Shown here: in pieces, positions 5,639 to 61,306 of the stretch
How positions within the stretch are numbered: position 1 is the first letter of the stretch
Layout of the letters: each line of letters begins with the position of its first letter
Assembly (NCBI GenBank): GCA_016186625.1
Contig: JACPLG010000007.1
Span: forward strand, 10,426 to 74,425
Direction of reading: 5' to 3'
DNA: 64,000 nucleotides
DNA from: Candidatus Levyibacteriota bacterium
Lineage (GTDB): Bacteria > Patescibacteriota > Microgenomatia > Levybacterales > UBA12049
Notes under the pieces: model-generated
The model's database searches: none
The model's input: only the letters and a program-made list of their open reading frames with translations
Told to the model about the DNA's origin: nothing
Position numbers and translations under genes: made by a program

Positions 5639-6997
5639 TTACGGATTAAATTTGAATCCTCTTCCTTTCACGGTCTGAATGTGTTGAGGTTGGTTGGGGT
5701 TTTCTTCTATCTTTTTCCTGACTCTAAAAATTAGTTGGTCTAGGGCTTGTTCACTTACCCCTGCTGTTGAGGAAAGGTCTGCCCAGACAGCATTAATTAT
5801 CTCATCTCTTTCAAGGATTTTTCCTGAGTTCTGTGCCATGAATTTTAAAAGTTTAAACTCAGAAGAAGTGAGCCCTTCGGATATGATAATCTCGCCTTTC
5901 CTGATTTCATTAGCTTGTTCATCGAAAACAATGTCTTGGCTTTTGGTTTCAATTTGATCTTTTGCAAAAGCTTCAAGCAGAGGTACGGTAATTTTTCCAT
6001 CCTTAATTAGACCAACTTTTTCAAGATGGGCAAGCTCAGAACTAGACGCTAGACGCTGATCACTAGACGCTAGTAGGCCTTGCTCATATGGGGAGAGTGA
6101 GCTCCAAATTTCATCCAAAACGGCACGTACTCGGTTTTGATTCATGAGAAAACCGAGTAAATTGTTCGATTGTTTCATTGTCTCATTGCTGTTTAAACAG
6201 GATTCGATGCTAACTAGCCATAATTTACCTAATCCCCCTGTAATCTTAGTTACTTCATCAAGGACTTTTTTATCTACACTTTTCCCTGTTGTTTTTTTAA
6301 GATATGAAAGTCTGAATTCCCTTATTTTCTCATCTCCCAGAGTTAAATAGACCAAATTTCCGACTAAAAATTCATAAAAAGAGGAAATAATTTCTGTCCC
6401 AACAGTATCCTCAAGCGGGCGATTGAGAGGAAAAACGCATGAGAAGCGGTATTTGGCTCTATCTCTAAGGACTCGTAAATGGTCAAAAAAGACAGGTTCC
6501 AAAACTCCCACGTATTCTTCAAATCGATCGAACAGTAAGATTAGGCTCAGTTCTTTTTCAAGACAGAGGTAATCAATTGTTTTCTTAAGGCCCTGGAAAA
6601 TCACCATTTCATCGCCTGATTTTAAGCCTTGGTCAAACAGCTCCTTAACACTCTTATGTTCCTCGTTCATTTTTCGGGCAGACAATGACTCAAGGATTTC
6701 AAGGAAAATATATTTTGTTGAGTCTGCTAAAGGCCTTTTTTTAATTTCTGCAAAATTCATCATCACAAAGTGAAACCATTTCTGGTTTTCTCCCAGATGA
6801 AGCTTGCGAACTGAATGATTGTATGCCAGGATCCGAAGAACATTTGATCTTCCCACTCCCCGAAGTGAAATCACCTGGCAGGAATTACCGCTTTTAAAAA
6901 AAGAGAGAATCTTCTCAATCTCCTCAAAACGCGAATCAGCGGGATAGAGACTCTCGAAGTGAGTCGTTTCCATTGTTCCATTATTCAATTGTTTCAT
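5639..6997 (-). CDS. P-loop NTPase (STAND/ORC-like) fused to a C-terminal OmpR/PhoB-type winged-helix DNA-binding domain
   Basis: Degenerate Walker A LRGVGRSN, Walker B-like LILLFDRFEE. C-terminus ALDQLIFRVRKKIE...HIQTVKGRGFKF matches the OmpR wHTH. Contains an in-frame tagacgctag repeat at 6025..6075. Confidence 0.6.
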   Translation of the reverse strand: MKQLNNGTMETTHFESLYPADSRFEEIEKILSFFKSGNSCQVISLRGVGRSNVLRILAYNHSVRKLHLGENQKWFHFVMMNFAEIKKRPLADSTKYIFLEILESLSARKMNEEHKSVKELFDQGLKSGDEMVIFQGLKKTIDYLCLEKELSLILLFDRFEEYVGVLEPVFFDHLRVLRDRAKYRFSCVFPLNRPLEDTVGTEIISSFYEFLVGNLVYLTLGDEKIREFRLSYLKKTTGKSVDKKVLDEVTKITGGLGKLWLVSIESCLNSNETMKQSNNLLGFLMNQNRVRAVLDEIWSSLSPYEQGLLASSDQRLASSSELAHLEKVGLIKDGKITVPLLEAFAKDQIETKSQDIVFDEQANEIRKGEIIISEGLTSSEFKLLKFMAQNSGKILERDEIINAVWADLSSTAGVSEQALDQLIFRVRKKIEENPNQPQHIQTVKGRGFKFNP

Positions 6998-11381: not shown

Positions 11382-13034
11382 TTAAATTTTAAAGATTTGT
11401 CTCCAAACAGCTTGTGGACCACCTTTTACTCCAGGCGCGGGAGTCTTCATTGAATAAGCAGCAGTACCTCTGGCAAAAGCTCCTATGGTGGCACCTGCTT
11501 CACCTGCGGGTTGGAAGACAGGGCCGTAGTTAACTCCTGTTGCTTTTATAGCGCTTCTTGTTACATTAAGAACGTTTGGAGTGAGGAACAGAAATCCTAA
11601 GGCAATAATTCCTGAGAAAATCGGTGATCCTGCGCCTGCGCCACCTCCCGCCAGAGGAGGAATAAATATCGGGCCAGTTGCACCAAAGAGGCTTGGGTCT
11701 GCCGCAATCTGGCTAAATACTTTACCAAGAATAATCATTGAAAGCGCAGTTGGGAATACAGCCAAGTTGGCAATCATGTCCTTAAACCACGCGCCTACTC
11801 CAACAGTTGATCCTGGGAAGAGGCCAATAAGAAACCAGAAAGGCGCAAAAACTATGTCAATAAGAATAGTTATATAAGCAACAATTAGTATTATCCAAAG
11901 CCTTATTGCCGTATAAATTAAGGCAATAAATATTATTAGTGCGGATAAGACTCCCACAATTAGCCCTACTACTGCTGCAAACATATTGCCAATAATGTCA
12001 AAAAAGCCTGGTTCAAATTTGAAATCGGATGGTGGTACTCCCCCGGGAGAACCATTCAGCGCTACCTCAACCAGTCTTCTAATTGTATCCGAGCCTTGGG
12101 CAGCAAGTTCAGGAAATCCTCCCCCACCTATAACCTCTAAATCCGGATCTCCTGGCCAGAGCCTGTTTATTAAATCAAAAGGAGTGGGGGAAGTTGCAAT
12201 TTCATTAAAGCCGATTTGCTGCGCGGTGGCAGAAGGTTGCCTGATAAGATCAAAAAGGATACCCCCAACTAAATAAATTGCAACGTACATAACATCAACC
12301 AGAAATCCGGCAATTGCAAAGGAAAATGTGACCAGAAGTATTCCTACAATTATTCTGGGAATCTGGTTCTCAATGGTCATAACAGTTCTGGGATCTATAT
12401 GGACCCTAAGCATTATGGCAAGGCCAATTAGGACAAAAATTAGAACAAATAGAAGATAGGCAATATTTCTCATGGCAACCCAGATTGAAATAAGGGGCCT
12501 GATGCCACAAAACCCTACTCCTTGCGAAGCGCCTGCGCATAGATTGGTCTGGGCATATGCTTTTTTGGTTATGCCAAAATTGCCAGCCAAATAGTTTATA
12601 TACTCTCCGGAGCTTACTGGAGGGGTGAAAGTGTAGGCAATAAATGTTCCTATTATCCCAACCGCTCCATTGCCGTTTTCCACAAACCCGATTTTTCCTG
12701 TCACAGGATCAATACCCAAACACTCCTGGCCACTTCTTACTAAATCCATACCTGAGAGCTGGCAGACCATGGCAGCCATCACCTCAATTACTACAGACTG
12801 AACATAACTGTGCTGGTCTTTGGGCACATCCGGATTTAAGTTGGGAGCATAAGCGGCTGATTGCTGATTGCTGATTGCTGATTGCTGATTTCCAACTACT
12901 ACAGTAGCGTTGGTTTGAGCATAGGCTGTTCCAATATAAAATATAAAATAGAAAAAAGAAAATAGACCGAAGAATAAAACTAAACGCTTAACGCTTAACG
13001 CTAGACGCTTCGCTTGGGCAGCAATTCTCATCAA
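11382..13034 (-). CDS. polytopic membrane protein, VirB6/TrbL-like
   Basis: Signal peptide, 6 or more TM helices, Gly-rich loops. An in-frame ctgattg x5 repeat at 12855..12895 and a gcttaacgc repeat lie in the N-terminal region. Confidence 0.45.
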   Translation of the reverse strand: MMRIAAQAKRLALSVKRLVLFFGLFSFFYFIFYIGTAYAQTNATVVVGNQQSAISNQQSAAYAPNLNPDVPKDQHSYVQSVVIEVMAAMVCQLSGMDLVRSGQECLGIDPVTGKIGFVENGNGAVGIIGTFIAYTFTPPVSSGEYINYLAGNFGITKKAYAQTNLCAGASQGVGFCGIRPLISIWVAMRNIAYLLFVLIFVLIGLAIMLRVHIDPRTVMTIENQIPRIIVGILLVTFSFAIAGFLVDVMYVAIYLVGGILFDLIRQPSATAQQIGFNEIATSPTPFDLINRLWPGDPDLEVIGGGGFPELAAQGSDTIRRLVEVALNGSPGGVPPSDFKFEPGFFDIIGNMFAAVVGLIVGVLSALIIFIALIYTAIRLWIILIVAYITILIDIVFAPFWFLIGLFPGSTVGVGAWFKDMIANLAVFPTALSMIILGKVFSQIAADPSLFGATGPIFIPPLAGGGAGAGSPIFSGIIALGFLFLTPNVLNVTRSAIKATGVNYGPVFQPAGEAGATIGAFARGTAAYSMKTPAPGVKGGPQAVWRQIFKI

Positions 13035-14873: not shown

Positions 14874-15227
14874 CTATGTTCTATTTTCTATCGTCGAACT
14901 CTCCGTCAGGGTTTTGGCAGTTGAAATTGCTGAGTCAATATTGCCCTGTCTTATAAAATCCCGCATTTGATTTAAAACCTGGTCTCTTTTTTCATCAGTT
15001 GCTTTTTCAAGCTCATCAAGATAAACTTTCTCAGCCTCAGGATATTTTTGTCCCAAGTTTTTAAGCTTTTGCAAAAGATCAGCCTGGTCTTTTATAGGAA
15101 GAACGGCAAGGAAATCACGGGCCAGTTGCTGAGCCGCCCCAGCCTCAATTTTATTACTCTTAAGATGCTCGATAATAAGTTGGAGCAACTCTTTTTTTAC
15201 TTCTTCAACCTCTTGCGTAATATCCAC
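14874..15227 (-). CDS. hypothetical helical protein
   Basis: 117-aa ORF with no recognised motif. Confidence 0.45.
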   Translation of the reverse strand: MDITQEVEEVKKELLQLIIEHLKSNKIEAGAAQQLARDFLAVLPIKDQADLLQKLKNLGQKYPEAEKVYLDELEKATDEKRDQVLNQMRDFIRQGNIDSAISTAKTLTESSTIENRT

Positions 15228-18527: not shown

Positions 18528-19088
18528 TTAGACCTCGTATTTATAGATTTTGGCTCTCTCGTGTTCGAATGAGGACATCTGAAGTTGCGTCATTTTTTCA
18601 AAATAGCGCCTAATGGGCCGAAGGCTGTTTCCCGAAGCGCAGATAAAAATGACGTCATTTTGCCAGACGTTTTGAAGAAGCTCTTTGAGAAACTCTAAAA
18701 CTCTTTCTTCAACCTGTTTTAGGCTCTCGCCTCCCGGAGGAGGAGTGTCATAGCCCCTGTGCCAGGCTGGATATTCTTTGGGGTAAAGCTCGGCTGTTTT
18801 TTTCTTACTTTTTCCGGTAAGATCCCCATAATCCCTCTCTCTAATTCTTGGATCTGCAACTACAACTTCTGTTCCGCCGTGTGGCTCTAAGACAATTTCC
18901 AGGGTGTGCTTTGTCCGTTTATTTGGAGCGCAAAATGCCTTGGTAACTTTTTCTTTTTTTAGCTCGTCTCTTATTTTTTTTGCTTCCTCCAAACCTTGTG
19001 GCGTTAAATCCGGGTCGCGGCGTCCTGAAAAAATGCCGTCTTTGTTGTCTGTTGTCTGGGCATGACGGAAAACAAATAATTTTGCCAT
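18528..19088 (-). CDS. histidine phosphatase family protein (phosphoglycerate mutase-like)
   Basis: N-terminal FVFRHAQTTDNKDGIFSGRRDPDLTPQG matches the RHG motif. Confidence 0.75.
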   Translation of the reverse strand: MAKLFVFRHAQTTDNKDGIFSGRRDPDLTPQGLEEAKKIRDELKKEKVTKAFCAPNKRTKHTLEIVLEPHGGTEVVVADPRIRERDYGDLTGKSKKKTAELYPKEYPAWHRGYDTPPPGGESLKQVEERVLEFLKELLQNVWQNDVIFICASGNSLRPIRRYFEKMTQLQMSSFEHERAKIYKYEV

Positions 19089-19169
19089 GATATATTAGGG
19101 TGTAGGGCGTAGGTGGTAGGGTGTAGTTCGAATCAAACTAAACGCTATACGCTAAACCCTATTCGCTAA

Positions 19170-19958
19170 ATGAAATTGCTTGATCTTATTTTCCCAAAAT
19201 ATTGTGTTAATTGCAAAAAATTCGGCGATTATCTTTGTCCTGATTGTTTTTCCCGTCTCTCATTTGATACAAAAAATATCTGTTTGGCATGCGGAAATCC
19301 TTCTTTTGACGGTTTGACTCATCCAAGGTGCAGTAGCCGTTATCGAATAGATGGCTCATTCACAGGAGTTGTTTTTAATCCTATCTCAAAAAAGCTAATT
19401 TATCAATTCAAATACAAGCCTTATTTATCCGGTTTGTCATCGTTTTTAACAGATTTACTTTATGAATCTCTTATTCAAAATGAAGAGTTTAATAAGGTTC
19501 TTCGTTTGCCATTGATGCTTGTTCCAATTCCTCTTAGCCCGAAACGATTTAAAAAAAGAGGATATAACCAGGCTGAAATTCTGGCAAAAAGTCTTTCCAA
19601 AAAGTTTGGTTCCCCGGTTGTTAATTACCTTGTTCGAACGAGAGAAACTCGTTCGCAAGTTGGTTTAACCAAAGAAAAGAGGAAAGAAAATGTTTCCGGC
19701 GCATTTGCATTGAGGAAAAATGTTCGGGGTCCTGCCACTCGTTTCCCTCCCGCCAGTGCTCGTTCACGAAACACTGACATCCGCGCTGTCTGGAGCCCTT
19801 CCACTCCTGTCACCCCTCACATTTTAATTGAAAATAAAAATATAATTCTAATTGACGATGTTTTGACAACTGGTTCTACTTTCTCCGAAGCTGGAAATGT
19901 TTTGAAAAGAGCTGGAGCTGCAAAAGTCTGGGCAATTGCCTTTGCAAGGGAACAATGA
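19170..19958 (+). CDS. comFC: ComF family protein (double zinc ribbon plus phosphoribosyltransferase domain)
   Basis: CVNCKKFGDYLCPDCF and CLACG ribbons. C-terminal IILIDDVLTTGSTF is the PRTase motif. A GC-rich in-frame insertion at 19727..19815 matches the family A repeat terminus. Confidence 0.75.
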   Translation: MKLLDLIFPKYCVNCKKFGDYLCPDCFSRLSFDTKNICLACGNPSFDGLTHPRCSSRYRIDGSFTGVVFNPISKKLIYQFKYKPYLSGLSSFLTDLLYESLIQNEEFNKVLRLPLMLVPIPLSPKRFKKRGYNQAEILAKSLSKKFGSPVVNYLVRTRETRSQVGLTKEKRKENVSGAFALRKNVRGPATRFPPASARSRNTDIRAVWSPSTPVTPHILIENKNIILIDDVLTTGSTFSEAGNVLKRAGAAKVWAIAFAREQ

Positions 19959-19997
19959 TCTTAGCTGTTAGCAACTAGCTTCTAGCGTCTAGTTATT

Positions 19998-20030
19998 GTT
20001 GACTTTGGACGGCGAAATATGATAATATAC
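19998..20030 (+). promoter_or_regulatory. sigma70-like promoter of the putative tmRNA
   Basis: ttgact, 18-nt spacer, taatat, then 8 nt to the ggggatg start. Confidence 0.45.
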
Positions 20031-20037
20031 GCACATT

Positions 20038-20436
20038 GGGGATGCATCGCATCGACAAGATTAGTTCTTTAAAAACTGCAAGCCGTCAACGATTAAAAAG
20101 ACGTTAACTTTGATCAAAAATTAAATGCTATAAAAGCGTTTAAAGCTAATGTTTTGGCTTTTGCCAGAACACTTAGCGCTCCATTTGCAGCACCGGCATT
20201 AGCCTTTGCTTAAATAGAGCTGTTCATTATATCTTCCTCAGGTGAGACATTTTGAGCATAAACTTAGCCTGAGAAACTGTAAGGAAGGCGGTTAGGTCCT
20301 TATTGTATTTATAACCTCGGCTCTTTTTATGGATGTTGATTTTCAAAGAAAAGAGTGATCAAAAAAATAATCAACTATGCTTGTAGAAGTTTTTAAACGC
20401 AATTCTTGCACTCGGGATCACTTCCCGACATCTCCA
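20038..20436 (+). ncRNA. ssrA: putative tmRNA (SsrA)
   Basis: 5' end ggggatgcatcgcatcgac resembles the tmRNA consensus GGGG.UG...UUCGAC. The 3' T-arm-like tcggg-atcactt-cccga is followed by catctcc pairing with the 5' end. Internal open frame ends ...AAPALAFA-taa at 20211. Adjacent to smpB. Confidence 0.55.
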
Positions 20437-20440
20437 CAAA

Positions 20441-20472
20441 AAGCCCTGACATAGTGTTCAGGGTTTTTTATT
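20441..20472 (+). terminator. intrinsic terminator after the tmRNA
   Basis: gccctgaca-tag-tgttcaggg followed by ttttttatt. Confidence 0.5.
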
Positions 20473-20917
20473 GGGATCCTGCGAGTTCTTGTTCTATATC
20501 TCGATTAAGATCTGCTCTTTTTTTAGCCTCTTTTTTGTCATATTGGCGTTTGCCTTTTCCAAGGCCTACCTCAACTTTAATCAACCCGTGTTTGTCATAA
20601 AGCGAAATAGGCACCAAGCTGGTGTTTGATCCTTCAGTTTTTCCCTTGAGTGAAATTATTTCTTTTTTATGGAGCAAAAGCTTTCTGGTTCTTGTTTCCT
20701 GATAGTTTTCCGGCCGGGCGTATTCGTATGGAAAAATTTTGGCATTAATTAGATATGCCTCGCTTCCCATAATGCGAACAAAGCTTCCGGTCAGGTCCGC
20801 ATGACCCATTTTAACAGCCTTAACTTCAGCTCCATTAAGATTTATGCCAGCCTCAAACTTATCCCCGATAAGATAATCATAAAATGCGCGTCTATTAGTG
20901 ATTTTCATATAGTTCAA
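20468..20917 (-). CDS. smpB: SsrA-binding protein SmpB
   Basis: Full-length match to SmpB (AFYDYLI...GAEVKAVK...LLLHKKEI). Confidence 0.9.
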   Translation of the reverse strand: MNYMKITNRRAFYDYLIGDKFEAGINLNGAEVKAVKMGHADLTGSFVRIMGSEAYLINAKIFPYEYARPENYQETRTRKLLLHKKEIISLKGKTEGSNTSLVPISLYDKHGLIKVEVGLGKGKRQYDKKEAKKRADLNRDIEQELAGSQ

Positions 20918-21029
20918 TTGTTACATTGTTCGATTGCTGCTCGGCTTGCCTCGCTTATTGTTGAACAGTTAGCAATTAAACAATAGAGCAATGGAGCAAT
21001 TGCTTTCCAATCATAGCCCAAAAGAGGGT

Positions 21030-22910
21030 TTACTTCAAATCGATTTGGTAGACTTTGCCACCGGAGAGAATAAAGATTTTTTTGCCGGTTTCGTCAACAT
21101 CAAGATCTTTTGCATTTTTTATGACACCGGCTGAATAAGCAGACACAAATTTACCATCTTTGTCAAGAACGATCACTCTTGAATTACCATTGTCCAGAAT
21201 ATAGATATTGTCCGAATCTTCGTTGGTGGCTATTCGAGAAGGTTTGGACATTGCTTTTTCAACCCCTGAAACAGAGAATGAATCCTCTTTCCCTCTTGTA
21301 TATTTTTTAATAGAGCCATCATCAAGGAGAATATAGACTGATCCATCAATTGCCATGGCAATACTACTTCCCAGATCAGGAGCCTCTGAAAAATAATCAG
21401 TTTTGTTGTAAGCGCTTTCTGAGGCTCCAACAAATTTCAATATCCCATCTCGCCTGTCTAGCACATAAACATTAGAGCCAAACAGACCAATTCCGCCCTC
21501 CTCTTTCCAATCCTTTTTTATGATTTGCTCTTTTTCATTGTTTCCTTTATCAATTCGAGACACTCCAGAGGAGTCAACAAAATAAATAAAATCCTCATTT
21601 TGGGCAAAATATGTGGCTTTTGGATTGTCAATTTCTACTAAGAGGAGCTTGCTTTCAGACTTTTCTACTTCTTTTGCTGAAACAATCTGTCCATCGGTGC
21701 TTGCGGAAACCTCTTTATTAACCTGTGCGAGAAGGTCTTCAATTTGTTTATCTTCCGTTGAACCCTGCCTAAACCTGTCTTTGTTTTCATCCAATATTTT
21801 CTTGGCTTCCCTAAAACTTTCCTGTGCAAGAGGCGCATTTAAATCTTTTAAGTTTTGTCCCTCGTCATATTTTTCCTGAGCTGAAGTAATTACGCTCTCA
21901 AAAAGTTCTTTGTCCGCTTGAGACTGTCTTCCTGTGAGAGCTAAAAATGCGCTTGCAGCAATAAGAACAATTAAAACTCCGGCAATAGTTAGCGCCACTC
22001 TTCTTCTATGAGATAAGGGATAAGGCAGTCTTTTTACCAAACCTAAGCCAAAACCAAACGAGACTCTCCTTCTTCTGGGCAACTGATCAGATAAAAATGG
22101 AGAAGTTGGCTCCATTGCCTCTTCTACCTCATCAATTGGAAAAGTCTCCGGCTGGGGTTCTTGTACGGGCTCTGACACTTGGTCTATATCCTCTGGAGGA
22201 GTCTTTGCAAGAGTCTGATCACTTGAAGTAATTTGCTCTTTCTCCTCTAAGGCCTCGTCTTCTATTTCGGTTTCTGGCTCTTCGGAGGGAGGAGTCATTT
22301 CTTCAAGACCGGCCTTTTTATATAAAAGTATAATTGATGAGGCAGCGCCTTCCGGCTTTTCATGCAAATGTGGCGCTAAGCTTTCCGCAATATCCTCTGG
22401 GTTGTTATGATCAAGAGACGAGGCTAAAATAGACTGTGGAATTACTTTCTGGAAAGATTTTGTCTCAAGAATAATTATATCTTCCTCCTGAACGTATCCC
22501 GAAGCAGACTTAATAGTTTGGGTTTCATCAGCCTCAAGAACAGTCCCAATTTTGTCCCCACTCTTAAGAACAGCTTTACCGCCACCTGTAGCAAAAAGAT
22601 AAAGGACATTTTCACTAAGATAACAAAGAATCATGGAAAGTTTGATGTCTTCTCTTATTTTCCCAACAGTAGTAGTGATGGCTTGTTTTATGGACTGAAG
22701 ATCTTTTTTTTCAAGTGTAAAAAATTCGCTTTCAAGTGTTGAAATTAAATCTTTGCCAATAGAATTTAGATGTTCCCCTCCGGCCTCTGGGATAATATCA
22801 GTCTCAAGAGAAAAGGCAGCAAAGAGGCGTCCTGCGCTATATGCCTGAGACCAGGCTCCTGGCGTAGGTGTTGCGACAACTTTACTAAAATTTAAATTTG
22901 TTTCTGCCAT
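21030..22910 (-). CDS. single-pass membrane protein with a cytoplasmic N-terminal domain and extracytoplasmic beta-propeller-like repeats
   Basis: TM at about residue 300. C-terminal repeated (V/I)Y(V/I)LD motifs (VYVLDRRDG, VYILLDDGS, IYILDNGNS) suggest NHL/YVTN-type blades. Confidence 0.45.
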   Translation of the reverse strand: MAETNLNFSKVVATPTPGAWSQAYSAGRLFAAFSLETDIIPEAGGEHLNSIGKDLISTLESEFFTLEKKDLQSIKQAITTTVGKIREDIKLSMILCYLSENVLYLFATGGGKAVLKSGDKIGTVLEADETQTIKSASGYVQEEDIIILETKSFQKVIPQSILASSLDHNNPEDIAESLAPHLHEKPEGAASSIILLYKKAGLEEMTPPSEEPETEIEDEALEEKEQITSSDQTLAKTPPEDIDQVSEPVQEPQPETFPIDEVEEAMEPTSPFLSDQLPRRRRVSFGFGLGLVKRLPYPLSHRRRVALTIAGVLIVLIAASAFLALTGRQSQADKELFESVITSAQEKYDEGQNLKDLNAPLAQESFREAKKILDENKDRFRQGSTEDKQIEDLLAQVNKEVSASTDGQIVSAKEVEKSESKLLLVEIDNPKATYFAQNEDFIYFVDSSGVSRIDKGNNEKEQIIKKDWKEEGGIGLFGSNVYVLDRRDGILKFVGASESAYNKTDYFSEAPDLGSSIAMAIDGSVYILLDDGSIKKYTRGKEDSFSVSGVEKAMSKPSRIATNEDSDNIYILDNGNSRVIVLDKDGKFVSAYSAGVIKNAKDLDVDETGKKIFILSGGKVYQIDLK

Positions 22911-23062
22911 TTCGTCGTCGGATCACAGCTTCCTGTCTTCATTGCGAACTTTAGTTCGCAATTTTGACTTCTTGCTGGATCCTCCTCTTCAAAATCCTTC
23001 GGATTTTGAGAAAATCTCGCTTACGCTCGATTTTAAAAAATTATTGCCTTATAAACAATAAT

Positions 23063-23311
23063 TTATAAAACAATAAGGGCAGCAACAAAAATTGAAATTC
23101 CAATAATAACGTTAAGTAATGCAATACTGTTGAGTAAAGACGAAGAAGTTCCGTCATTTACTACTGCCTGCATTGCCCTAGATTGCTTATAAACAACAAG
23201 AAGAAACCCAACATACATTCCGTTAACAATAAGGAATATAACTTTAATTAAAGTTAGGGCAGAGAATATGTTAAAAATTTGATCAAACATGAATATGTTG
23301 AACTTTTCCAA
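23063..23311 (-). CDS. small membrane protein
   Basis: 82 aa with two TM helices. Weak call. Confidence 0.3.
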   Translation of the reverse strand: MEKFNIFMFDQIFNIFSALTLIKVIFLIVNGMYVGFLLVVYKQSRAMQAVVNDGTSSSLLNSIALLNVIIGISIFVAALIVL

Positions 23312-24002
23312 TCAAATCATTAATGATGTTAATTATTCTCTCAGGATGGGGGACAGCAAGAAATTCGAAGTTTGCCGCCGGACCTGCCGTATGTATATGG
23401 ACATCTCCGTAGTCAAAAATCGAGCGAATTATTCCTACCTGTTTATAACCAACATCTTCTACCTGGCTCAACTTGGTAGCATCTACATTTTCAAACACTA
23501 AGCTTGAAAAGTCAATATCTATTATTCGTTTGTCAGTAACCAGTCCAATGTTGTAAAACCAGGTTAAATAATTAACGAATATAAATCCCACTACAAAAAA
23601 ATAATAAAGAAGAAGAATCATGAAAATATAAATAGGAGGGAGAAAATTAATTGGTAAACCCCCAAATTGCGTAATGGCAATGAAAATAAACGGAGAAATT
23701 ACCAGTGCTAGGGCTGAAACGATCCAAGGTACATTGGTAATAAAATGTTTTCGCAAAAATAATAAAAGCTCTTCATTTTCAAGTCGATCGGCAAAGGTCA
23801 CTCCAAGAGGCCTTTCACAATACGCTGTAGTCAGATGATTATGAGAATGACCTTCGTTACCCTCAAATTCTATTATTTGTTTTCTTAAATCTATGCTCTT
23901 TAGTTCTTTGTTTTTTCTTTTCTCTTCCGCCTTGCTCTCTGTTATCTCCTCACTTTTAGGGTTGTCGTTTTTTAATGTATTTCCGACAAAAATATCAGGC
24001 AT
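23283..24002 (-). CDS. YdbS/YdbT-like bacterial PH-domain membrane protein (bPH_2)
   Basis: TM hairpin followed by VTDKRIIDIDFSSLVFENVD. Confidence 0.5.
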   Translation of the reverse strand: MPDIFVGNTLKNDNPKSEEITESKAEEKRKNKELKSIDLRKQIIEFEGNEGHSHNHLTTAYCERPLGVTFADRLENEELLLFLRKHFITNVPWIVSALALVISPFIFIAITQFGGLPINFLPPIYIFMILLLYYFFVVGFIFVNYLTWFYNIGLVTDKRIIDIDFSSLVFENVDATKLSQVEDVGYKQVGIIRSIFDYGDVHIHTAGPAANFEFLAVPHPERIINIINDLIGKVQHIHV

Positions 24003-24035
24003 TGTAAAAATAGTAAATAGTAAATAGTAAATATT

Positions 24036-24200
24036 TTTCAGAATACTCAGAAGTTTACTCAGATCGTCAGAAAAAATCAGACAATCAGATAATCAGAAAT
24101 CCGGAACTCTGAAACACTGATTCTCTGAAAATATCTGGTACTCTGAGTTTTCCGAGTTTTCTGGGCAGGGAGAACGAGCGACAGGACCCCGAGCGGAGAT
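24036..24200. repeat. family A palindromic element, inverted copy of 27341..27575
   Basis: Reverse complement is near-identical (about 170 bp) to the 27341 copy, apart from a 62-bp GC-rich insertion in the latter. Confidence 0.7.
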
Positions 24201-27340: not shown

Positions 27341-27575
27341 GCTAGGGGTCCTGTCGCTCGTTTCCCTGCTCAGAAAACTCGGAAAACTCAGAGTACCAGA
27401 TATTTTCAGAGAATCAGTGTTTCAGAGTTCCGGATTTCCCGCCTGCCATGGCCTGCCAGCCCGCTTGCCAAGCGAAGCGGCCAGGGGCACTGGCGGACAG
27501 GCTGATTATCCGATTGTCTGATTTTTTCTGACGATCTGAGTAAACATCTGAGTATTCCGAAAAATATTTTCTATG
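27341..27575. repeat. family A palindromic element carrying a nested GC-rich hairpin insertion
   Basis: ggggtcctgtcgctcgtttccctgctcagaaaactcggaaaactcagagt... The nested 62-bp insert (tttcccgcctgccatggc...) resembles the hairpin at 4705..4750. Confidence 0.7.
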
Positions 27576-35263: not shown

Positions 35264-36436
35264 ATGGTAAATTTGCCGAGTTTGGAGTCTGCCAATGTTA
35301 GAAACAAAAGAGTTTTTGTAAGGTGTGATTTTGATGTTCCGCTATCGCAACAGCCAACTGCCAACAAACAACCTGCCTCGCCGGCAGGCAGGCAAACAAC
35401 TATTGCGGATGATATGCGTTTGATTTCCGGGGTTTCCACGATTGAGCATCTACTCGAACAAGGAGCCACAGTTATTGCTGCTGGTCATCTTGGACGGCCC
35501 GCTCGCCATCGCTACGCTCAGGAGTTAGCGGGCGAACCCGGCGACCAATTTCAAATTACTGAGCCGCAGTTCAGTTTACTTCCTATTGCACAGTGGTTTG
35601 CGGAGGAATTCCCGGGGACAAGCGTAAAGCAAACCCATATTGGAGGATTTTCAGCTTGGAAACTTAAGGAAAATTTTTATATTCTTGAGAATCTGAGGTT
35701 TTATAAAGAGGAAGAGGAAAATGACAGAGCTTTCTATCATAAATTAGCTTATCTTGTAGATATCTATGTTAATGAAGCTTTTGGCTCATCTCATAGGCCG
35801 CATGCTTCAATTGTTGGAATCCCTTCACTTCTTCCTCATTTTCCCGGCTTCCATTTCCAGAAAGAAGTAAAGATTTTAAGTAGTGTAATTGATAATCCCA
35901 GAAGACCTTTTACTTTTATTGTGGGAGGAGCAAAAATCGAAACCAAACTTCCGCTAATTTCAAGAATGCATAAATTTGCTGATTATGTTTTGGTGGGAGG
36001 GGAACTAGCTGAACAAGATAAAGTTTTGATAAAAGAACAGCATGAGAGTATGTCTTCAAACAAAGCAATGCTTTTTGTTGCGGATCTAAACTCTGACAAA
36101 ACAGATATTACGCCAAAAAGTCTTGAGAATTTTTTACAGATTGTTCCGCGCTCGAAATGTATTATCTGGAACGGGCCGATGGGATTAATAAATGAAAAAT
36201 TAAAAATTAAAAATGAAAAACTTGAGGAAGGGGACGGGGGATATACGAGTTTAAAACTGGCTGAAGAGATTATTGCAAGCGGAGCATATAAAGTTGTTGG
36301 GGGAGGAGATACAATTGGACTTCTTAACAAACACAAACTTTTGGGAAACTTCGATTTTGCATCCGTAGGAGGCGGTGCAATGCTTGAGTTTCTCTCAGGA
36401 GAAACTTTGCCAGGAGTTTTAGCTCTTCAAAATTAA
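35264..36436 (+). CDS. pgk: phosphoglycerate kinase
   Basis: VRCDFDVPL, GHLGRP and VVGGGDT motifs. An in-frame GC-rich insertion lies at about 35350..35400. Confidence 0.85.
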   Translation: MVNLPSLESANVRNKRVFVRCDFDVPLSQQPTANKQPASPAGRQTTIADDMRLISGVSTIEHLLEQGATVIAAGHLGRPARHRYAQELAGEPGDQFQITEPQFSLLPIAQWFAEEFPGTSVKQTHIGGFSAWKLKENFYILENLRFYKEEEENDRAFYHKLAYLVDIYVNEAFGSSHRPHASIVGIPSLLPHFPGFHFQKEVKILSSVIDNPRRPFTFIVGGAKIETKLPLISRMHKFADYVLVGGELAEQDKVLIKEQHESMSSNKAMLFVADLNSDKTDITPKSLENFLQIVPRSKCIIWNGPMGLINEKLKIKNEKLEEGDGGYTSLKLAEEIIASGAYKVVGGGDTIGLLNKHKLLGNFDFASVGGGAMLEFLSGETLPGVLALQN

Positions 36437-51776: not shown

Positions 51777-53087
51777 ATGAATAAACCAACCTTCAAAATC
51801 ATTTCTAAAGATGGAAAAGCGCGGGCCGGTGAGATCAAAACAGACCATGGCATCGTGCTGACTCCTGCTTTTTTGCCTGTAGGGACGAAGGCTACGGTAA
51901 AGAGTTTAACTCCGCAGCAATTAAAAGAGATTGGAATTGAGGCTGTTTTAGCAAACACATATCATCTGCATCTCCAGCCGGGAGAAGATACGATTGGAAA
52001 GCTTGGCGGATTGCATAAGTTTATGAATTGGAATAAACCTCTTATGACTGATTCCGGAGGATTTCAGGTTTTTTCTTTGGGGGTTGGGCTTGAAAAACCG
52101 GGAGTAAAATTCCTAAAAGATTTAGACTATGGAAGATTGAAGATAGAAAATAGAACTTTGAAGGTAGAAGATAGAAGATCGAACCATCATCCATCCTCCA
52201 TCATCAATAATCTATCATCCACCGTCAATCCTCTATCGTCAAATGAAGAGTCGCGCCCTCGTTTAAACAGAATTACAGAGGAGGGAGTGGAGTTTCAGTC
52301 TCATATTGATGGAAGCAAACACAAACTTACACCTGAACTATCTGTGGAAATCCAAGAGAAAATCGGTGCTGATCTCATCATAGCGTTTGATGATTTAGAG
52401 TCTCCGACATATTCTTTCGAACAAACAAAAAAAAGCTTGGAACTAACCAATCGCTGGGAACTCAGAAGTCTAAAAACCCATTTAGCCTTCCAAGGCGTCG
52501 CCTTGGAGCCTCAAAGGCAGCTTTTGTATGGGGTCACCCACGGAGGGCAGTTTGAAAGCTTGCGGAGAGAATCGGCGAGATTTGTTGACAAACATTTTGA
52601 TGCTGTAGCTTTGGGTGGAGCCCATCGCAACAAATCGAACATGTATCAGGTGATTGAATGGACCGTTGAAGAGCTCGATGAAGAAAAACCTAGACATATG
52701 TTGGGAATTGGAGAAGTGGATGATATTTTTGAGGTGATTGAGCGAGGAGTTGATACATTTGACTGCGTAATTCCAACTCGGCTTGGACGAATGGGCCACG
52801 TTTTCATCTATCCTCCAGAAGGAAATATTAAGAATCGGTTCAGATACGATATAACCAAGTCCAAATATGCAAAAGACCAGCGACCAATAGCCAAAGACTG
52901 CGACTGCTACGTTTGTCAAAATTTCACCCAAGCCTATATAAACCATCTATTTCGAAGCCGCGAACTCTTAGCTTACACTCTTGCCACCTACCACAACGTT
53001 TATTTTATTAATGATTTAACCAACAAAATTCGCCAGGCTATTTTAAATAAGAAGTTTATTGAATTAAAGAAAAAATGGTTACTGTAG
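51777..53087 (+). CDS. tgt: queuine tRNA-ribosyltransferase with a repeat-derived internal insertion
   Basis: LTPAFLPVGTKATVK, MTDSGGFQVFSLG, and Zn-site CxCxxC...H motifs. An approximately 55-aa insertion at 52085..52265 is built of gaagatagaa-type repeat words. Confidence 0.85.
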   Translation: MNKPTFKIISKDGKARAGEIKTDHGIVLTPAFLPVGTKATVKSLTPQQLKEIGIEAVLANTYHLHLQPGEDTIGKLGGLHKFMNWNKPLMTDSGGFQVFSLGVGLEKPGVKFLKDLDYGRLKIENRTLKVEDRRSNHHPSSIINNLSSTVNPLSSNEESRPRLNRITEEGVEFQSHIDGSKHKLTPELSVEIQEKIGADLIIAFDDLESPTYSFEQTKKSLELTNRWELRSLKTHLAFQGVALEPQRQLLYGVTHGGQFESLRRESARFVDKHFDAVALGGAHRNKSNMYQVIEWTVEELDEEKPRHMLGIGEVDDIFEVIERGVDTFDCVIPTRLGRMGHVFIYPPEGNIKNRFRYDITKSKYAKDQRPIAKDCDCYVCQNFTQAYINHLFRSRELLAYTLATYHNVYFINDLTNKIRQAILNKKFIELKKKWLL

Positions 53088-58695: not shown

Positions 58696-59925
58696 TTGAC
58701 GTATATGAAAGTAGCTATTGTTCATGATTACATAAAGGAATATGGCGGAGCAGAAAGGGTTTTGGAAGCACTATCTGAGATTTATCCCAAAGCTCCGATT
58801 TATACTGCATTTGTTGATAAAAATTCCAGTGCTTACGAGAGGTTTAAGAATAAAAAAATTATTTCTTCGTGGTTTGGCTATCTGCCATTTGCATCAAAAC
58901 TTGCAAGCCCGCTGCGGTTTTTAACTCCTTTTATTTGGGGCTCGTTTGATTTCTCAAAATATGACCTGGTGATTTCCAGTGCATCGTGGTACATCACTAA
59001 AGGTTTTGGTTCAGGCAAGCAATCGAGCAATGAAACAATCGAACAATCTGGCCGAAGGCCTATCGAGATTTGTTATTGTCATACGCCTCCCAGATGGCTT
59101 TATGGCTATACCACTTCTGTAAACTTTCAAAAATACGCTCTTGTTCGTCTCTATGCGCATGTTGTAGGACATTTCCTTCGTCTATACGATTTTAAACAAG
59201 CACAAAAGGTAGATTATTTTATAGCGAATTCGCAAGAAGTGGCAGCAAGAATTAAAAAATTTTACAGAAGAGACTCAACTGTGATTTACCCGCCGGTAAG
59301 TTTGCAAAATCCGAAATCCGAAATCCGAAATCCGAAATCCGGTAAGGATTATTATTTTATGGTTTCGCGAATTGTTGGAGCAAAAGGTCTGGAGTTGGCA
59401 GTGGAAGCTTCAATTAAGGCAGGGTTTAAGCTTAAAATCGCTGGAGCAAAAGCAGGATATTATTCGGATCGTGGACTTCGAGAAAACGCCCAAGAAAACG
59501 TCGAGTTTCTGGGACAAGTTTCAGATGAGGAGTTAGCTGAGCTTTACAGGGGAGCAAAAGGATTTTTGGCTTTAGCTCGCGATGAGGATTTTGGAATAAC
59601 ACCGGTTGAGGCAATGATGGCAGGAACACCTGTTATTGCTTACAACGGAGGAGGGTATAAGGAGAGCGTTATTGATCCTTCGGCAGCTTCCTCCAAAGGC
59701 GGACAGGCAGGACAAGCGGCAACAGGAGTTTTATTTGATGATTATTCTGTTGATGGTCTTATTTCGGCGATTAAAAAATTTGAAAAGACCAAGTTTGACC
59801 CAGACGTTTTAATAAACCACGCACAAAAGTTTAGCAAAGAAAGATTTGAGAAAGAAATCAGGGAGTTTGTTGAAAAGCATGCAATCACAGAAGCACAGAG
59901 GAGTCCGCAGAAAACTCAGAAATGA
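58696..59925 (+). CDS. glycosyltransferase family 4 protein with in-frame microsatellite insertion
   Basis: GT4 N-terminus MKVAIVHDY...GGAERV and C-terminal EDFGITPVEAMMAGTPVIA. A (aaatccg)n repeat at 59298..59340 encodes NPKSEIRNPKSG. Confidence 0.8.
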   Translation: MTYMKVAIVHDYIKEYGGAERVLEALSEIYPKAPIYTAFVDKNSSAYERFKNKKIISSWFGYLPFASKLASPLRFLTPFIWGSFDFSKYDLVISSASWYITKGFGSGKQSSNETIEQSGRRPIEICYCHTPPRWLYGYTTSVNFQKYALVRLYAHVVGHFLRLYDFKQAQKVDYFIANSQEVAARIKKFYRRDSTVIYPPVSLQNPKSEIRNPKSGKDYYFMVSRIVGAKGLELAVEASIKAGFKLKIAGAKAGYYSDRGLRENAQENVEFLGQVSDEELAELYRGAKGFLALARDEDFGITPVEAMMAGTPVIAYNGGGYKESVIDPSAASSKGGQAGQAATGVLFDDYSVDGLISAIKKFEKTKFDPDVLINHAQKFSKERFEKEIREFVEKHAITEAQRSPQKTQK

Positions 59926-60400: not shown

Positions 60401-61306
60401 GTGCCGGAGCTTCCAGAGGTTGAAACCATACGCTTAGGTTTACAAAAATACGTTGTTGGACACAAAATCGAAAATGTCGAAGTTCGATTGCCAAAGATTT
60501 TCCCTGGAGACCCAAAACAAGTAATCGGTGCAAAGATTATTGCCGCTAGACGCTTTGGGAAAGGTTTGGTCATTGATTTATCAAACGGTTATAGCCTCGC
60601 CATCCATGTAAAGCTGACAGGGCAACTTGTTTATCGCGACCCAAAAACTTCAAAACTTCCTGTATCAAAGGCAAAAGTAGGAACAGTGCCGAATAAGTTT
60701 ACCCACGTGATATTTAAGCTAAAAGCTAAAAGCGGAAAGCGAAAAAATAAGAACGGAGATGCAGTTCTTTATTACAACGATCAAAGAAGATTTGGGTGGA
60801 TAAAAGTTATCCCAACGAATAAAGTTTTGGAAATGCCTTATTTCAAGGGAATCGGACCTGAGCCCCAGATAAATGTATCAAAGGCATCAGGAGTATCAAA
60901 GGGAAAACTTACGTTTGAAAAATTCAGGGCTATAGTTTCCATATCCCATGTTGTAATAAAATTCCTTCTTATGGATCAGAAAAAAATTGGAGGAATTGGA
61001 AATATTTATGCCAATGACGCGCTTTTCCTCGCCGGCATTGATCCCAGAAGAAAAGCCCACACTTTAACAGAGGAAGAAATCAAAAAACTTTATAAAGCAA
61101 TCCATACCGTAATGGAGAGAGGTTTCAAGTATGGAGGAGCAAGCGAACTCCAGTTTGTCAACGTCTTAGGACAAGAAGGAGAATACCAAAACCACAGTTT
61201 GGTTTATGGCAAAAAAGGAAAAGATTGCCCCAATGGGAATGGTAAGATCAAAAAGATATTTTTAGGAGGACGGGGGACGTTCTTTTGCTCCGCCTGTCAA
61301 AGGTAA
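60401..61306 (+). CDS. mutM: formamidopyrimidine-DNA glycosylase (Fpg/MutM/Nei family)
   Basis: N-terminal PELPEVE, H2TH region, and C-terminal zinc finger CPNGNGKI...CSACQR. GTG start. A Lys-rich insertion derives from gctaaaa repeats. Confidence 0.85.
   Translation: MPELPEVETIRLGLQKYVVGHKIENVEVRLPKIFPGDPKQVIGAKIIAARRFGKGLVIDLSNGYSLAIHVKLTGQLVYRDPKTSKLPVSKAKVGTVPNKFTHVIFKLKAKSGKRKNKNGDAVLYYNDQRRFGWIKVIPTNKVLEMPYFKGIGPEPQINVSKASGVSKGKLTFEKFRAIVSISHVVIKFLLMDQKKIGGIGNIYANDALFLAGIDPRRKAHTLTEEEIKKLYKAIHTVMERGFKYGGASELQFVNVLGQEGEYQNHSLVYGKKGKDCPNGNGKIKKIFLGGRGTFFCSACQR

What the first reader, a model, noticed from the sequence alone, without database searches (positions are those of the whole stretch)
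19727..19815. Repeat-element fragments inserted in-frame into conserved CDSs (comFC example, multiple others)
The ComF protein carries a 29-aa GC-rich insertion, PATRFPPASARSRNTDIRAVWSPSTPVTP. Its DNA (ggggtcctgccactcgtttccctcc...) matches the family A element terminus (ggggtcctgtcgctcgtttccctgc at 27345 and at 24170 on the reverse strand). The same pattern recurs elsewhere. A (aaatccg)n run sits in the GT4 gene at 59298..59340. The tagacgctag repeat sits in the ATPase-wHTH gene at 6025..6075. The ctgattg x5 repeat sits in the VirB6-like gene at 12855..12895. A cctgcc...ggcagg hairpin sits in pgk at 35350..35400, and gctaaaa repeats in mutM at 60690..60740. All preserve the reading frame, which points to selection for tolerated insertions inside essential proteins.
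Basis: seen in the sequence. Interest (0 to 1): 0.6.

Follow-up and report, generated by a model that had tools for sequence, protein, structure and literature searches.

The report
Hairpin repeats inserted in-frame in genes
In this Levybacteria (candidate phyla radiation) genome, a roughly 100-base hairpin-forming repeat and several smaller repeats sit in-frame inside housekeeping genes such as comF and pgk, adding disordered surface loops; this is the same kind of phenomenon as the protein-invading palindromic elements of Rickettsia, but in an unrelated lineage.

Summary

- **The comF insert.** It spans 19722-19820 and is a full-length copy of a dispersed 80-108 nt repeat, not a fragment. 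It is the 'family A' copies at 27341 and 24195 that carry truncated copies.
- **The repeat family.** It has invariant ends (GCTCGGGGTCCTG...CACCCCTCGC). Its hairpin arms differ between subfamilies through compensatory changes.
- **Where copies sit.** Of 105 copies collected from low-GC (CPR-like) contigs, 44-51 lie in-frame inside long ORFs. By my reading of flanking motifs these include ComF, PGK, PRPP synthetase, TsaD, TopA, RecJ and SecA. Most use one hydrophilic reading frame, and only 2-3 break the frame.
- **Orthologs.** Most ComF orthologs lack the insert. AlphaFold2 models place the ComF insert and all three PGK inserts in low-confidence loops.
- **Evolution.** The ComF copies are closer to copies in other genes than to each other. 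Their third codon positions differ far less than those of the flanking codons. This points to turnover or gene conversion.
- **Other examples.** The heptamer arrays in GT4, the wHTH protein, the secreted protein and mutM, and the pgk palindrome, are also in-frame and sit in variable loops. Their net length gains are small (+2 to +15 aa).

Best explanation: selfish palindromic repeats filtered by selection. I found no prior description.

The parts
19170..19958 (+). comF (ComF/ComFC family: double zinc ribbon plus PRTase domain), the host gene
   Evidence: Pfam DZR_2 and Pribosyltran. 100% identical to an NCBI 'ComF family protein [Candidatus Levybacteria]'.
19722..19820 (+). Full-length copy of the hairpin repeat. 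It is a 99-nt unit, GTTC-GGGGTCCTG...CACCCC-TCAC, read in-frame as (V)RGPATRF...PVTP(H). This copy is slightly degenerate: a G>T change weakens the inner stem.
   Evidence: nhmmer bit score 91.6, E=1e-26 against the family model. Absent from most orthologs. Third-codon-position divergence is 6-13% against 43-52% in the flanks. AF2 pLDDT <50 for residues 186-217. The fold is weak for this copy (z about -2 to 0).
27341..27368 (+). Truncated 5' part (about 28 nt) of the hairpin repeat, fused to the 'family A' octamer/heptamer region, just 3' of the ribulose-phosphate 3-epimerase gene
   Evidence: nhmmer model positions 3-30; sequence; Pfam for the neighbouring gene.
24155..24195 (-). Truncated 5' part (about 41 nt) of the hairpin repeat, fused to 'family A', 3' of a SpoIID-like gene. 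It is syntenic with a full-length copy in another Levybacteria genome (L004 7543-7641).
   Evidence: nhmmer model positions 2-41; three-genome comparison of the intergenic region.
35264..36436 (+). pgk, with repeat-derived in-frame inserts in three loops
   Evidence: Pfam PGK; PDB alignment; ortholog alignment A4. AF2 low-confidence segments 34-42, 86-96 and 314-318 coincide with the inserts.
35342..35392 (+). pgk loop 1: a heptamer-like run (CAACAGC x2.7) plus a nested 21-nt GC-rich palindrome CCTGCCTCGCCGGCAGGCAGG (35372-35392). Together they account for a 15-aa insert relative to PDB PGKs.
   Evidence: Orthologs at this loop carry (CAATYAA)n heptamers or the 99-nt hairpin element.
35501..35539 (+). 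pgk loop 2: an extra 39-nt GC-rich segment (ARHRYAQELAGEP), absent from P0398 and P0438
   Evidence: Codon comparison; GC island; alignment A4.
36184..36220 (+). pgk loop 3: (ATTAAAA)x5.1 heptamer array coding EKLKIKNEKLE, absent from many orthologs
59307..59341 (+). (AAATCCG)x5 perfect heptamer array in the linker between the two GT4 domains. Net gain is +4-5 aa against the closest ortholog.
   Evidence: TRF; Pfam domain borders 17-204 and 209-378; alignment with L118, L067, L136 and L082. L067 and L136 carry the hairpin element at the same linker.
59680..59721 (+). Second, GC-rich in-frame insert in GT4 (PSAASSKGGQAGQAA). Its core matches 20/21 nt of an insert in the ComF of another genome (L004), read there in a different frame.
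6042..6073 (-). (CTAGACG)x4.6 array coding LASSDQRLASSSE in the wHTH (Trans_reg_C) protein. Net gain is +5 aa; the variant occurs in 4 of 24 orthologs.
12856..12890 (-). (GCTGATT)x5 perfect array coding GNQQSAISNQQSA, in the variable linker after the signal peptide of a conserved secreted/membrane protein. Net gain is +2 aa against the closest homolog.
60716..60745 (+). (AAGCGAA/AAGCTAA)x4.3 array coding KLKAKSGKRK in the N-terminal domain of mutM/fpg. That domain is about 17-20 aa longer than the Pfam/PDB baseline.
52132..52221 (+).

Best explanation
**What it is.** The comF insert is a copy of a non-autonomous, palindromic (hairpin-forming) dispersed repeat of about 80-108 nt. The repeat is common in Levybacteria and related CPR genomes. 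Its ends are invariant (GCTCGGGGTCCTG ... CACCCCTCGC), while its arms differ between subfamilies and stay complementary.

**How it most likely works.**
- Shown: copies lie in intergenic DNA and inside genes, in either orientation.
- Inferred: purifying selection removes every genic copy that breaks the frame, carries a stop, encodes a hydrophobic peptide or hits a structured part of the protein.
- Shown: the surviving genic copies are in-frame, mostly in one Pro/Ser/Ala/Arg/Gly-rich frame (A-RGP...TPR), and sit in surface loops, where they add a disordered 30-aa loop.
- Inferred: a still unidentified enzyme that recognises the conserved ends plus the hairpin mobilises the element.
- Inferred: copies at one site are replaced or homogenised from other copies, by re-insertion or gene conversion.

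**The other examples.** The 7-nt tandem arrays and the small GC-rich palindromes in GT4, the wHTH protein, the secreted protein, pgk, mutM and tgt are other repeat classes of the same genome. The same selective filter lets them persist in the same kind of permissive loops.
For: **Family and structure**
- Full-length copies with the same ends occur in Patescibacteria/Levybacteria MAGs and in about 88 low-GC metagenome contigs.
- 96% of 103 distinct copies fold as a single hairpin closed by GGGG/CCCC, with a median z of -2.9.
- Each copy's own arms pair at -23.9 kcal/mol, against -15.2 kcal/mol for arms from different subfamilies.
- On alignment A5, 7 of 8 pairs in the outer variable stem show changes on both sides. 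That is 90 cells against 34.5 +/- 4.4 in shuffles, and 87% of cells paired against 35-56% when the partners are slid.
- Both strands fold equally well, and G-U pairs show only a small excess on the forward strand (196 against 146).

**Copies inside genes**
- 44-51 of 105 copies are spanned by an open frame with at least 40-50 aa on both sides. Only 2-3 have open frames on both sides that do not join.
- Frame use is strongly biased toward the most hydrophilic frame, which is stop-free in 85 of 103 copies.

**Lineage-specific and in loops**

**Turnover**
- The window's ComF copy is 98.9% identical to a copy in a PRPP-synthetase-like gene. It is only 92% and 87% identical to the ComF copies of L001 and L003.
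- Inside the element, substitutions are spread evenly over codon positions, at 6-19%. Flanking third positions differ by 43-52%.
- L004 carries a different subfamily at the same ComF site.

**Not an artefact**
- The insert appears in independent assemblies from NCBI, ENA and Logan.
Against: - No autonomous partner or transposase was identified.
- No target-site duplication was detected.
- No clean filled-versus-empty pair of closely related genomes was found.
- Translation of the inserts is inferred from frame conservation only.
- Nucleotide-level conservation and well-kept hairpins inside genes would also fit a function at the DNA or RNA level. In-frame copies fold as well as intergenic ones.
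- The copy set was collected with patterns that require exact ends, so it is biased toward well-preserved copies.
- The window's own copy is a poor hairpin.
Confidence: 0.72

Rival explanations
1. The hairpin is a functional nucleic-acid element, for example an RNA or DNA structure bound by a host protein that affects mRNA stability, translation pausing, replication or chromosome organisation. On this view it is kept by selection where it sits, including inside genes, and the peptide is a by-product.
For: Invariant 13-nt and 10-nt ends across many genomes, and extensive compensatory change in the arms. Inside comF the element is far better conserved at the nucleotide level than the surrounding synonymous sites. 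Genic copies keep their folding energy. Different subfamilies occupy the same loop in orthologs of ComF, PGK, TsaD and TopA.
Against: Copies occur in both orientations relative to the host gene (26 same, 18 opposite). Both strands fold equally well, without a strong G-U bias. There is no Rfam family. Many orthologs lack the element, and others carry decayed or deleted remnants. The window's own copy has a weakened stem. ComF copies resemble copies in other genes more than they resemble each other, which fits spread or conversion better than in-place conservation.
Confidence: 0.17
2. The element is removed after transcription (a mini-intron) or bypassed by the ribosome, so it never appears in the protein.
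For: It is a compact structured element with conserved ends inside essential genes. CPR bacteria are known for intervening sequences in rRNA genes (this rests on my own knowledge and was not tested here).
Against: Removal would lift any frame constraint, yet 44 genic copies are in-frame against 2-3 that are not. One hydrophilic frame is preferred. Insert sites are surface loops. At 80-108 nt the element is far below group I/II intron size, and there is no Rfam intron hit. It also occurs in reverse orientation inside genes.
Confidence: 0.04
3. The segments are ordinary lineage-specific low-complexity loops that arose in place by slippage or point mutation, and their resemblance to intergenic repeats is coincidental.
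For: For the heptamer arrays in GT4, the wHTH protein and the secreted protein, the net length change is only +2 to +5 aa, and the closest homolog of the secreted protein has a similar Q/S-rich linker. The pgk palindrome has no significant DNA match elsewhere in my data.
Against: This cannot explain the comF insert, which matches a 99-nt family end to end at E=1e-26. The same element occurs in PGK, GT4 and many other genes. The heptamer units inside genes are the same or similar units as in intergenic arrays: AAATCCG also occurs at 2200 and 51653, and arrays with a related unit (CTAAACG / AACGCTT) at 19138 and 12983. Period 7 is the commonest period among tandem repeats in the window (37 of 97 TRF rows), which in-frame slippage would not favour.
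Confidence: 0.07

Closest known systems
Rickettsia palindromic elements (RPE; Ogata et al. 2000 Science, 2002 Genome Res., as summarised in PMC10969869)
   Same: Both are short (about 100-150 bp) palindromic dispersed repeats. About half the copies lie in-frame inside unrelated housekeeping genes. Both use a conserved reading frame that encodes a peptide, and both sit at sites compatible with the protein fold. Neither has an identified transposase.
   Different: The host is an unrelated lineage (CPR/Levybacteria, not Rickettsia), and no sequence relationship was tested. This family has invariant GC-rich ends and arms that have diversified strongly by compensatory change (48 arm clusters). It occurs in both orientations in genes and shows signs of ongoing turnover or homogenisation at the same sites. 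It coexists with heptamer arrays and mini-palindromes that also enter genes.
REP / REPIN elements mobilised by RAYT transposases (GTAG- or CGTC-tagged palindromes; PMC3733652)
   Same: Both are GC-rich imperfect palindromes with a conserved end motif and a hairpin of about 100 nt (the REPIN). Many copies occur per genome, both strands fold, and they often lie just 3' of genes.
   Different: REPs are by definition extragenic, whereas about half of these copies are genic. The end motif is GCTCGGGG / CCCCTCGC, not GTAG or CGTC. No RAYT gene was looked for or found.
Bacterial MITEs that occasionally fuse in-frame with genes (ERIC, Correia, Coxiella QMITE; PMC10969869, PMC5896051)
   Same: All are small non-autonomous repeats with inverted ends that can be read through as part of host ORFs.
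   Different: Here the terminal inverted repeat is only about 9 nt, imperfect (7/9). No target-site duplication was detected and there is no parent IS. The proportion of genic in-frame copies is far higher than is usual for those MITEs.
Heptanucleotide tandem repeats of cyanobacteria (STRR) and the TAACTGA repeats of Beggiatoaceae (PMC4679880)
   Same: This comparison applies to the heptamer arrays only. Both show abundant 7-nt tandem arrays of many different units concentrated in intergenic DNA.
   Different: Here arrays of the same kind also sit in-frame inside conserved genes (pgk, tgt, GT4, mutM; dnaX in L145), giving 7-aa periodic peptides. I did not find this described.

Membership tests
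RPE-like protein-invading palindromic repeats (a functional kind, not a homology family) | Short dispersed repeat able to fold into a long hairpin | tested here: met
   103 distinct copies: 96% form a single hairpin closed by the ends, with median z -2.9. Arm covariation is shown.
RPE-like protein-invading palindromic repeats (a functional kind, not a homology family) | A large fraction of copies inserted in-frame in unrelated protein-coding genes | tested here: met
   44-51 of 105 copies are spanned by long open frames, and 2-3 break the frame. More than 15 different host protein types were seen.
RPE-like protein-invading palindromic repeats (a functional kind, not a homology family) | Preferential use of one reading frame that encodes a conserved peptide | tested here: met
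   27 of 31 same-orientation genic copies read A-RGP...TPR/SPL. That frame is stop-free in 85/103 copies and is the forward frame richest in P/S/T/A/G/R.
RPE-like protein-invading palindromic repeats (a functional kind, not a homology family) | Insert sites compatible with the host fold (surface loops) | tested here: met
   In the AF2 ComF model the insert, residues 186-217, has pLDDT <50 within an otherwise confident model. The PGK inserts are the only segments with pLDDT <50.
Rickettsia RPE families proper (RPE-1 to RPE-10) | Sequence similarity to RPE consensus sequences; Rickettsiales host | not tested
The host here is Candidatus Levybacteria, so homology is not expected.
MITE | Terminal inverted repeats | tested here: inconclusive
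   The ends GCTCGGGGT and GCGAGGGGT (reverse complement of the 3' end) match at 7 of 9 positions. Beyond that, the whole element is a palindrome.
MITE | Target-site duplication | tested here: not met
   There is no excess of matching k-mers at any tested boundary. No clean empty site was available.
MITE | A related autonomous IS with the same ends | not tested
   No such element was seen in the fetched loci, and no systematic search was possible. The viral-contig scan found no full copies.
REP/REPIN-RAYT | Extragenic location | tested here: not met
   About half the copies are inside ORFs.
REP/REPIN-RAYT | GTAG or CGTC tag at one end; cognate RAYT gene | tested here: not met
   The ends are GCTCGGGG and CCCCTCGC. 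RAYT was not searched for.
Self-splicing intron / intein | Size and conserved catalytic core (group I/II RNA; intein blocks) | tested here: not met
   The element is 80-108 nt, or about 31-33 aa. There was no Rfam hit at E<=1 in four copy-bearing loci or at E<=0.1 in the window region. The frame constraint argues for read-through.

The most novel reading that the evidence does not exclude
The hairpin element is not just tolerated junk. A dedicated, still unknown enzyme recognises the invariant ends and repeatedly re-targets or converts the same permissive loops of conserved proteins. Different subfamilies occupy the identical site in ComF, PGK, TsaD, TopA, RecJ and GT4 orthologs. On this reading, Levybacteria run a homing-like system that continuously rewrites surface loops of housekeeping proteins, and the hairpin itself may be under selection in place at the DNA or RNA level.
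Probability: 0.2. Interest if true: 0.85.

Novelty: new member of a known kind. Interest (0 to 1): 0.66.

Why it matters
In-frame colonisation of housekeeping genes by palindromic repeats has been treated as a peculiarity of Rickettsia. The title of Ogata et al. 2002 calls it 'a unique but recurrent feature'. This finding would matter in four ways.

- **A second, independent case.** Here it appears in free-living or episymbiotic CPR bacteria with equally small genomes. It involves many more host genes and at least three repeat classes: the 99-nt hairpin, small GC-rich palindromes and heptamer arrays. That would show the process is a general route by which selfish DNA creates new protein loops in reduced genomes.
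- **Practical consequences.** Protein lengths and alignments in Levybacteria, and possibly related CPR lineages, are inflated by repeat-derived loops. PGK is 390 aa here against a 344-aa baseline. This affects orthology calls, phylogenetic markers and structure prediction.
- **A handle for finding the enzyme.** The invariant ends give a precise starting point for identifying the mobilising enzyme.
- **A test of tolerance.** The element offers a natural experiment on which protein sites tolerate 30-aa disordered inserts.

Tried and rejected
**Known RNA family.** Rfam was run at a permissive E-value on four loci holding copies, and on window 19000-28000. It found only the tmRNA. Rejected.

**Phage origin.** A scan of IMG/VR with GCTCGGGGTCCTGYC gave 107 hits but no full element. 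Rejected.

**The 18-mer genome scan.** Most of the 59 hits were in high-GC genomes, close to the chance expectation of about 69. Only the low-GC hits were real.

**Strand-specific RNA.** G-U counts and folding energies are similar on both strands, so there is no support.

**Target-site duplication and exact boundaries.** None was found. Comparing the orthologous intergenic site in three genomes did not yield a clean empty site.

**A 'family B' palindrome family for the pgk insert.** No significant DNA match was found. There is only a motif-level recurrence, CCTGCC-N5-GGCAGG, in P0009 ComF.

**Spurious N-terminal extension of ORF 11382-13034.** This would have put the heptamers in the 5' UTR. 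It is rejected because the signal-peptide sequence is conserved in homologs.

**Literature.** Four text searches for CPR/Patescibacteria/Microgenomates with palindromic, MITE, in-frame or repeat terms, and one search for the end motifs, found no description. One further search failed on a syntax limit.
Full report
**Source and setting**

The window is from a Candidatus Levybacteria genome (CPR/Microgenomates). The ComF, wHTH and PGK proteins are 100% identical to NCBI MAG proteins with that name, on a 94.8-kb contig. GC content is about 40%. Short GC-rich islands stand out against this background, and tandem repeats are dominated by period 7 (37 of 97 TRF rows).

**1. The observation**

ORF 19170..19958 (+) encodes a 262-aa ComF-family protein with DZR_2 and PRTase domains. 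It carries the GC-rich segment RGPATRF...PVTP.

- The first 25 nt of the segment recur at 27345 (+) at 22/25, with none expected in shuffles, and at about 24164-24192 (-).

**2. What the comF insert is**

*Orthologs.* Most of the top 120 ComF orthologs listed (of 2578 hits) are 230-234 aa. Only P0001-P0003 and P0012 carry a full insert at this site.

*A dispersed repeat.* Collection scans showed that the segment is a complete copy of a dispersed repeat.

- An 18-mer from its 5' end found full-length relatives in Patescibacteria/Levybacteria MAGs. It also found at least 10 copies in one low-GC MAG that is labelled 'Gammaproteobacteria'.
About 88 of these are low-GC.
- The unit is GCTC-GGGGTCCTG...CACCCC-TCGC and is 80-108 nt long. 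Only the ends are invariant.
- In the window, the comF copy is the full element (19722-19820).
- The two 'family A' copies hold only its first 28-41 nt, fused to an octamer/heptamer-rich palindromic region.
- The 24195 copy is syntenic with a full-length copy in another genome.

*Structure.*

- 96% of 103 distinct copies fold as one long hairpin closed by GGGG/CCCC. The median z-score is -2.9.
- A copy's own 5' and 3' arms pair much better than arms taken from different subfamilies: -23.9 against -15.2 kcal/mol.
- On a 49-sequence alignment, 7 of 8 pairs of the variable outer stem show changes on both sides. That is 90 cells against 34.5 +/- 4.4 in shuffles, and 87% of cells paired against 35-56% when the partners are slid.
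- Both strands fold equally well, and G-U pairs are only slightly more frequent on the forward strand.
- No Rfam family matches.
- The window's own copy is a degenerate hairpin.

*Genic copies.*

- Of 105 distinct copies, 44 are spanned by one open frame with at least 50 aa on each side; at a 40-aa threshold the count is 51.
- At the 50-aa threshold, 51 copies are not in an ORF and 7 are at contig ends.
- Only 3 have open frames on both sides that do not join, and one of those is an artefact of the opposite strand.
- Judged from conserved motifs flanking the inserts, the hosts include ComF, PGK, a PRPP-synthetase-like protein, DprA, TsaD, dihydroorotase, TopA, RecJ, RadA, SecA, L10, PolA, UvrD and GT4 enzymes. 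ComF, PGK and GT4 were confirmed by search or alignment; the other names are my readings and were not checked against a profile library.
- At the 50-aa threshold, 26 genic copies have the orientation of the host gene and 18 the opposite.
- At the 40-aa threshold, 27 of the 31 same-orientation copies use the frame A-RGP...TPR/SPL. That frame is stop-free in 85/103 copies and is the forward frame richest in P/S/T/A/G/R. The next frame is more hydrophobic.
- Genic copies fold as well as intergenic ones.

*Location in the proteins.*

- The AF2 model of ComF has mean pLDDT 82 and pTM 0.80. Residues 186-217 have pLDDT <50 and no secondary structure. They lie between a strand at 179-181 and the strand before the DDVLTTG loop.
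- The PGK model (pLDDT 86) has three low-confidence segments, and these are exactly the three insert loops.

*Evolution at the comF site.*

- Between the window, L001 and L003, flanking codons differ at 43-52% of third positions. The element differs at 6-13% of third positions and 6-19% at the other two codon positions, so there is no codon-position bias.
- L004 carries a different subfamily at the same site: 42-49% identity in the element against 72-74% in the flanks.
- Each ComF copy's nearest relatives are copies in other genes. The window's ComF copy is 98.9% identical to the copy in the PRPP-synthetase-like gene, and 95.6% identical to two further genic copies (L159 and L135, which I read as RecJ and TopA). 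It is only 92% and 87% identical to the other ComF copies.
- The L003 copy carries the outer-stem variant of a different, widespread subfamily.
- P0021 keeps CGGGGTCCTGTC followed by an internal deletion.
- P0005 may be a decayed copy.
- P0009 has a small CCTGCC-GGCAA-GGCAGG palindrome in the same loop.
- I infer turnover at a permissive site, by re-insertion or gene conversion, plus decay. A single ancient insertion evolving as coding sequence does not fit these data.

**3. The other listed cases**

*pgk.*

- There is a 15-aa insert relative to PDB PGKs.
- Among Levybacteria orthologs the baseline is about 344 aa, against 390 aa here, with three variable loops.
- Loop 1 here is a heptamer-like run with a nested 21-nt palindrome (35372-35392). 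In P0438 the same loop is (CAATYAA)x4.7. In P0398, P0407 and P0408 it holds the hairpin element.
- Loop 2 has an extra 39-nt GC-rich piece.
- Loop 3 is (ATTAAAA)x5.1.

*GT4.*

- The perfect (AAATCCG)x5 array lies in the inter-domain linker. It adds 4-5 aa relative to the closest ortholog (61% identity).
- Two more distant homologs carry the hairpin element at the same linker.
- A second, GC-rich 13-aa insert (59680-59721) matches an insert in L004 ComF at 20/21 nt.

*wHTH protein.* The heptamer-coded LASSDQRLASSSE variant adds 5 aa and occurs in 4 of 24 orthologs. Other orthologs carry GC-rich inserts elsewhere.

*ORF 11382-13034.*

- Its signal peptide is conserved in homologs, so the array is genuinely inside the coding sequence.
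- The array sits in a variable Q/S/N-rich linker and adds only 2 aa relative to the closest homolog.
- Pfam gives no family for this protein.

*mutM.* The N-terminal domain is about 17-20 aa longer than the Pfam/PDB baseline around the array. Lineage specificity was not tested.

It has a heptamer-coded insert of about 40 aa.

**4. Mechanism**

*Shown:* a structured palindromic repeat family exists; about half of its well-preserved copies are in-frame in genes; one frame is used preferentially; the inserts sit in loops; their distribution across lineages is patchy; and copies at non-orthologous sites are close relatives.

*Inferred:* the element spreads selfishly, mobilised by an unknown enzyme that reads the ends plus the hairpin. 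Purifying selection then leaves only in-frame, hydrophilic copies in loops. Copies at the same site are converted or replaced from other copies.

*Rivals:*

- A function at the DNA or RNA level that is conserved in place. The conservation and covariation make this plausible. The two orientations, the strand symmetry, the remnants and the nearest-neighbour pattern count against it.
- Removal from the RNA or ribosomal bypass. The frame constraint contradicts this.
- Origin in place by slippage. This is possible for the small heptamer changes but not for the 99-nt element.

**5. Comparison with known systems**

- The closest analogue is the Rickettsia palindromic elements. About half of their copies are in-frame in housekeeping genes, they use a conserved frame, and their insert sites are compatible with the protein fold (review PMC10969869, citing Ogata 2000 and 2002).
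- Every functional criterion I could test is met. Homology was not tested and is not expected.
- REP/REPIN and classical MITE definitions fail on extragenic location, end tag and target duplication.
- The heptamer arrays resemble cyanobacterial and Beggiatoaceae heptamer repeats (PMC4679880), apart from their presence inside genes.
- Text searches found no description of such elements in CPR.

**6. Verdict**

I file this as a new member of a known kind: a protein-invading palindromic repeat, in a new phylum, with unusually conserved ends and signs of site turnover.

*Caveats:*

- The copy set is biased by the exact-end search patterns, and the scan was truncated.
- Translation of the inserts has not been shown directly.
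- No mobilising enzyme, target duplication or clean empty site was found.

Noticed in passing
window, whole (e.g. 3133-3186, 3525-3572, 39032-39136, 62391-62498, 14772-14891): Intergenic regions are packed with 7-nt tandem arrays of many different units; period 7 accounts for 37 of 97 TRF rows. An array is often followed by an array of roughly the complementary unit, so the pair could form a hairpin with 7-nt periodic arms. This recalls the cyanobacterial STRR and Beggiatoaceae TAACTGA repeats (PMC4679880).
   Followed up: partly
window 52132-52221 (tgt, 51777-53087 +): tRNA-guanine transglycosylase carries an in-frame insert of about 40 aa coded by (GAAGATA)x7.4 plus (CCATCAT)x5.4. The insert splits the Pfam TGT match into two stretches.
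   Followed up: partly
window 27369-27560 (+) and 24010-24154 (-): 'Family A' is a composite: a truncated hairpin-element 5' end joined at the same junction to an octamer/heptamer-rich imperfect palindrome. In L049 a full hairpin element is followed about 35 nt later by the same kind of region.
   Followed up: partly
window 27437-27502 and 4709-4752: A GC-rich hairpin (ATTTCCCGCCTGCCAT...) is nested inside the 27345 family-A copy. Its first 16 nt recur at 4709-4724, and the 4712-4752 palindrome recurs at 94% identity in metagenome locus L104.
   Followed up: partly
window 54785-54829 and 7668-7740: Two further small GC-rich repeat families are shared with other loci. One is GCTTGTCAAGCAAGCGAGCTCC..., found in L090 and nested inside a hairpin element in L043. 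The other is CCCGCTTCGCAGCGAGGCGAGC, found in L140, L145 and L087. The second lies at the very start of the 1239-aa ORF 7659-11378, whose true start is therefore uncertain.
   Followed up: no
L145 10650-10800: What I read as a DnaX-like gene (GKTSTARI...PCNKC motif; not checked against a profile library) in another low-GC contig carries in-frame heptamer repeats, CGTCTAG and its complement, between the P-loop helix and the zinc-binding motif. This is the same unit as in the window's wHTH gene.
   Followed up: no
window 20038-20439 (+) and 20468-20917 (-): A tmRNA gene (Rfam 96 bits) lies directly downstream of comF and is convergent with smpB. ARAGORN did not report it.
   Followed up: no
L026, L031, L034, L043, L045, L049, L061, L064 (assembly CAZFNO01): A MAG titled 'uncultured Gammaproteobacteria' has about 38% GC and at least 10 copies of this CPR-type hairpin element, some inside genes. 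The taxonomic label is probably wrong.
   Followed up: no
alignment A1 columns 128-145 (ComF orthologs) and A3 (wHTH orthologs): Many orthologs carry other short GC-rich inserts at a second ComF loop (SLPPKAGRQ, SFPPEAGRQDDSL, PLQGKQVQ...) and in the wHTH protein (PARNASQPASQAERGGQGAS...). Small palindromes of the CCTGCC/GGCAGG type therefore appear to enter many proteins across Levybacteria.
   Followed up: partly
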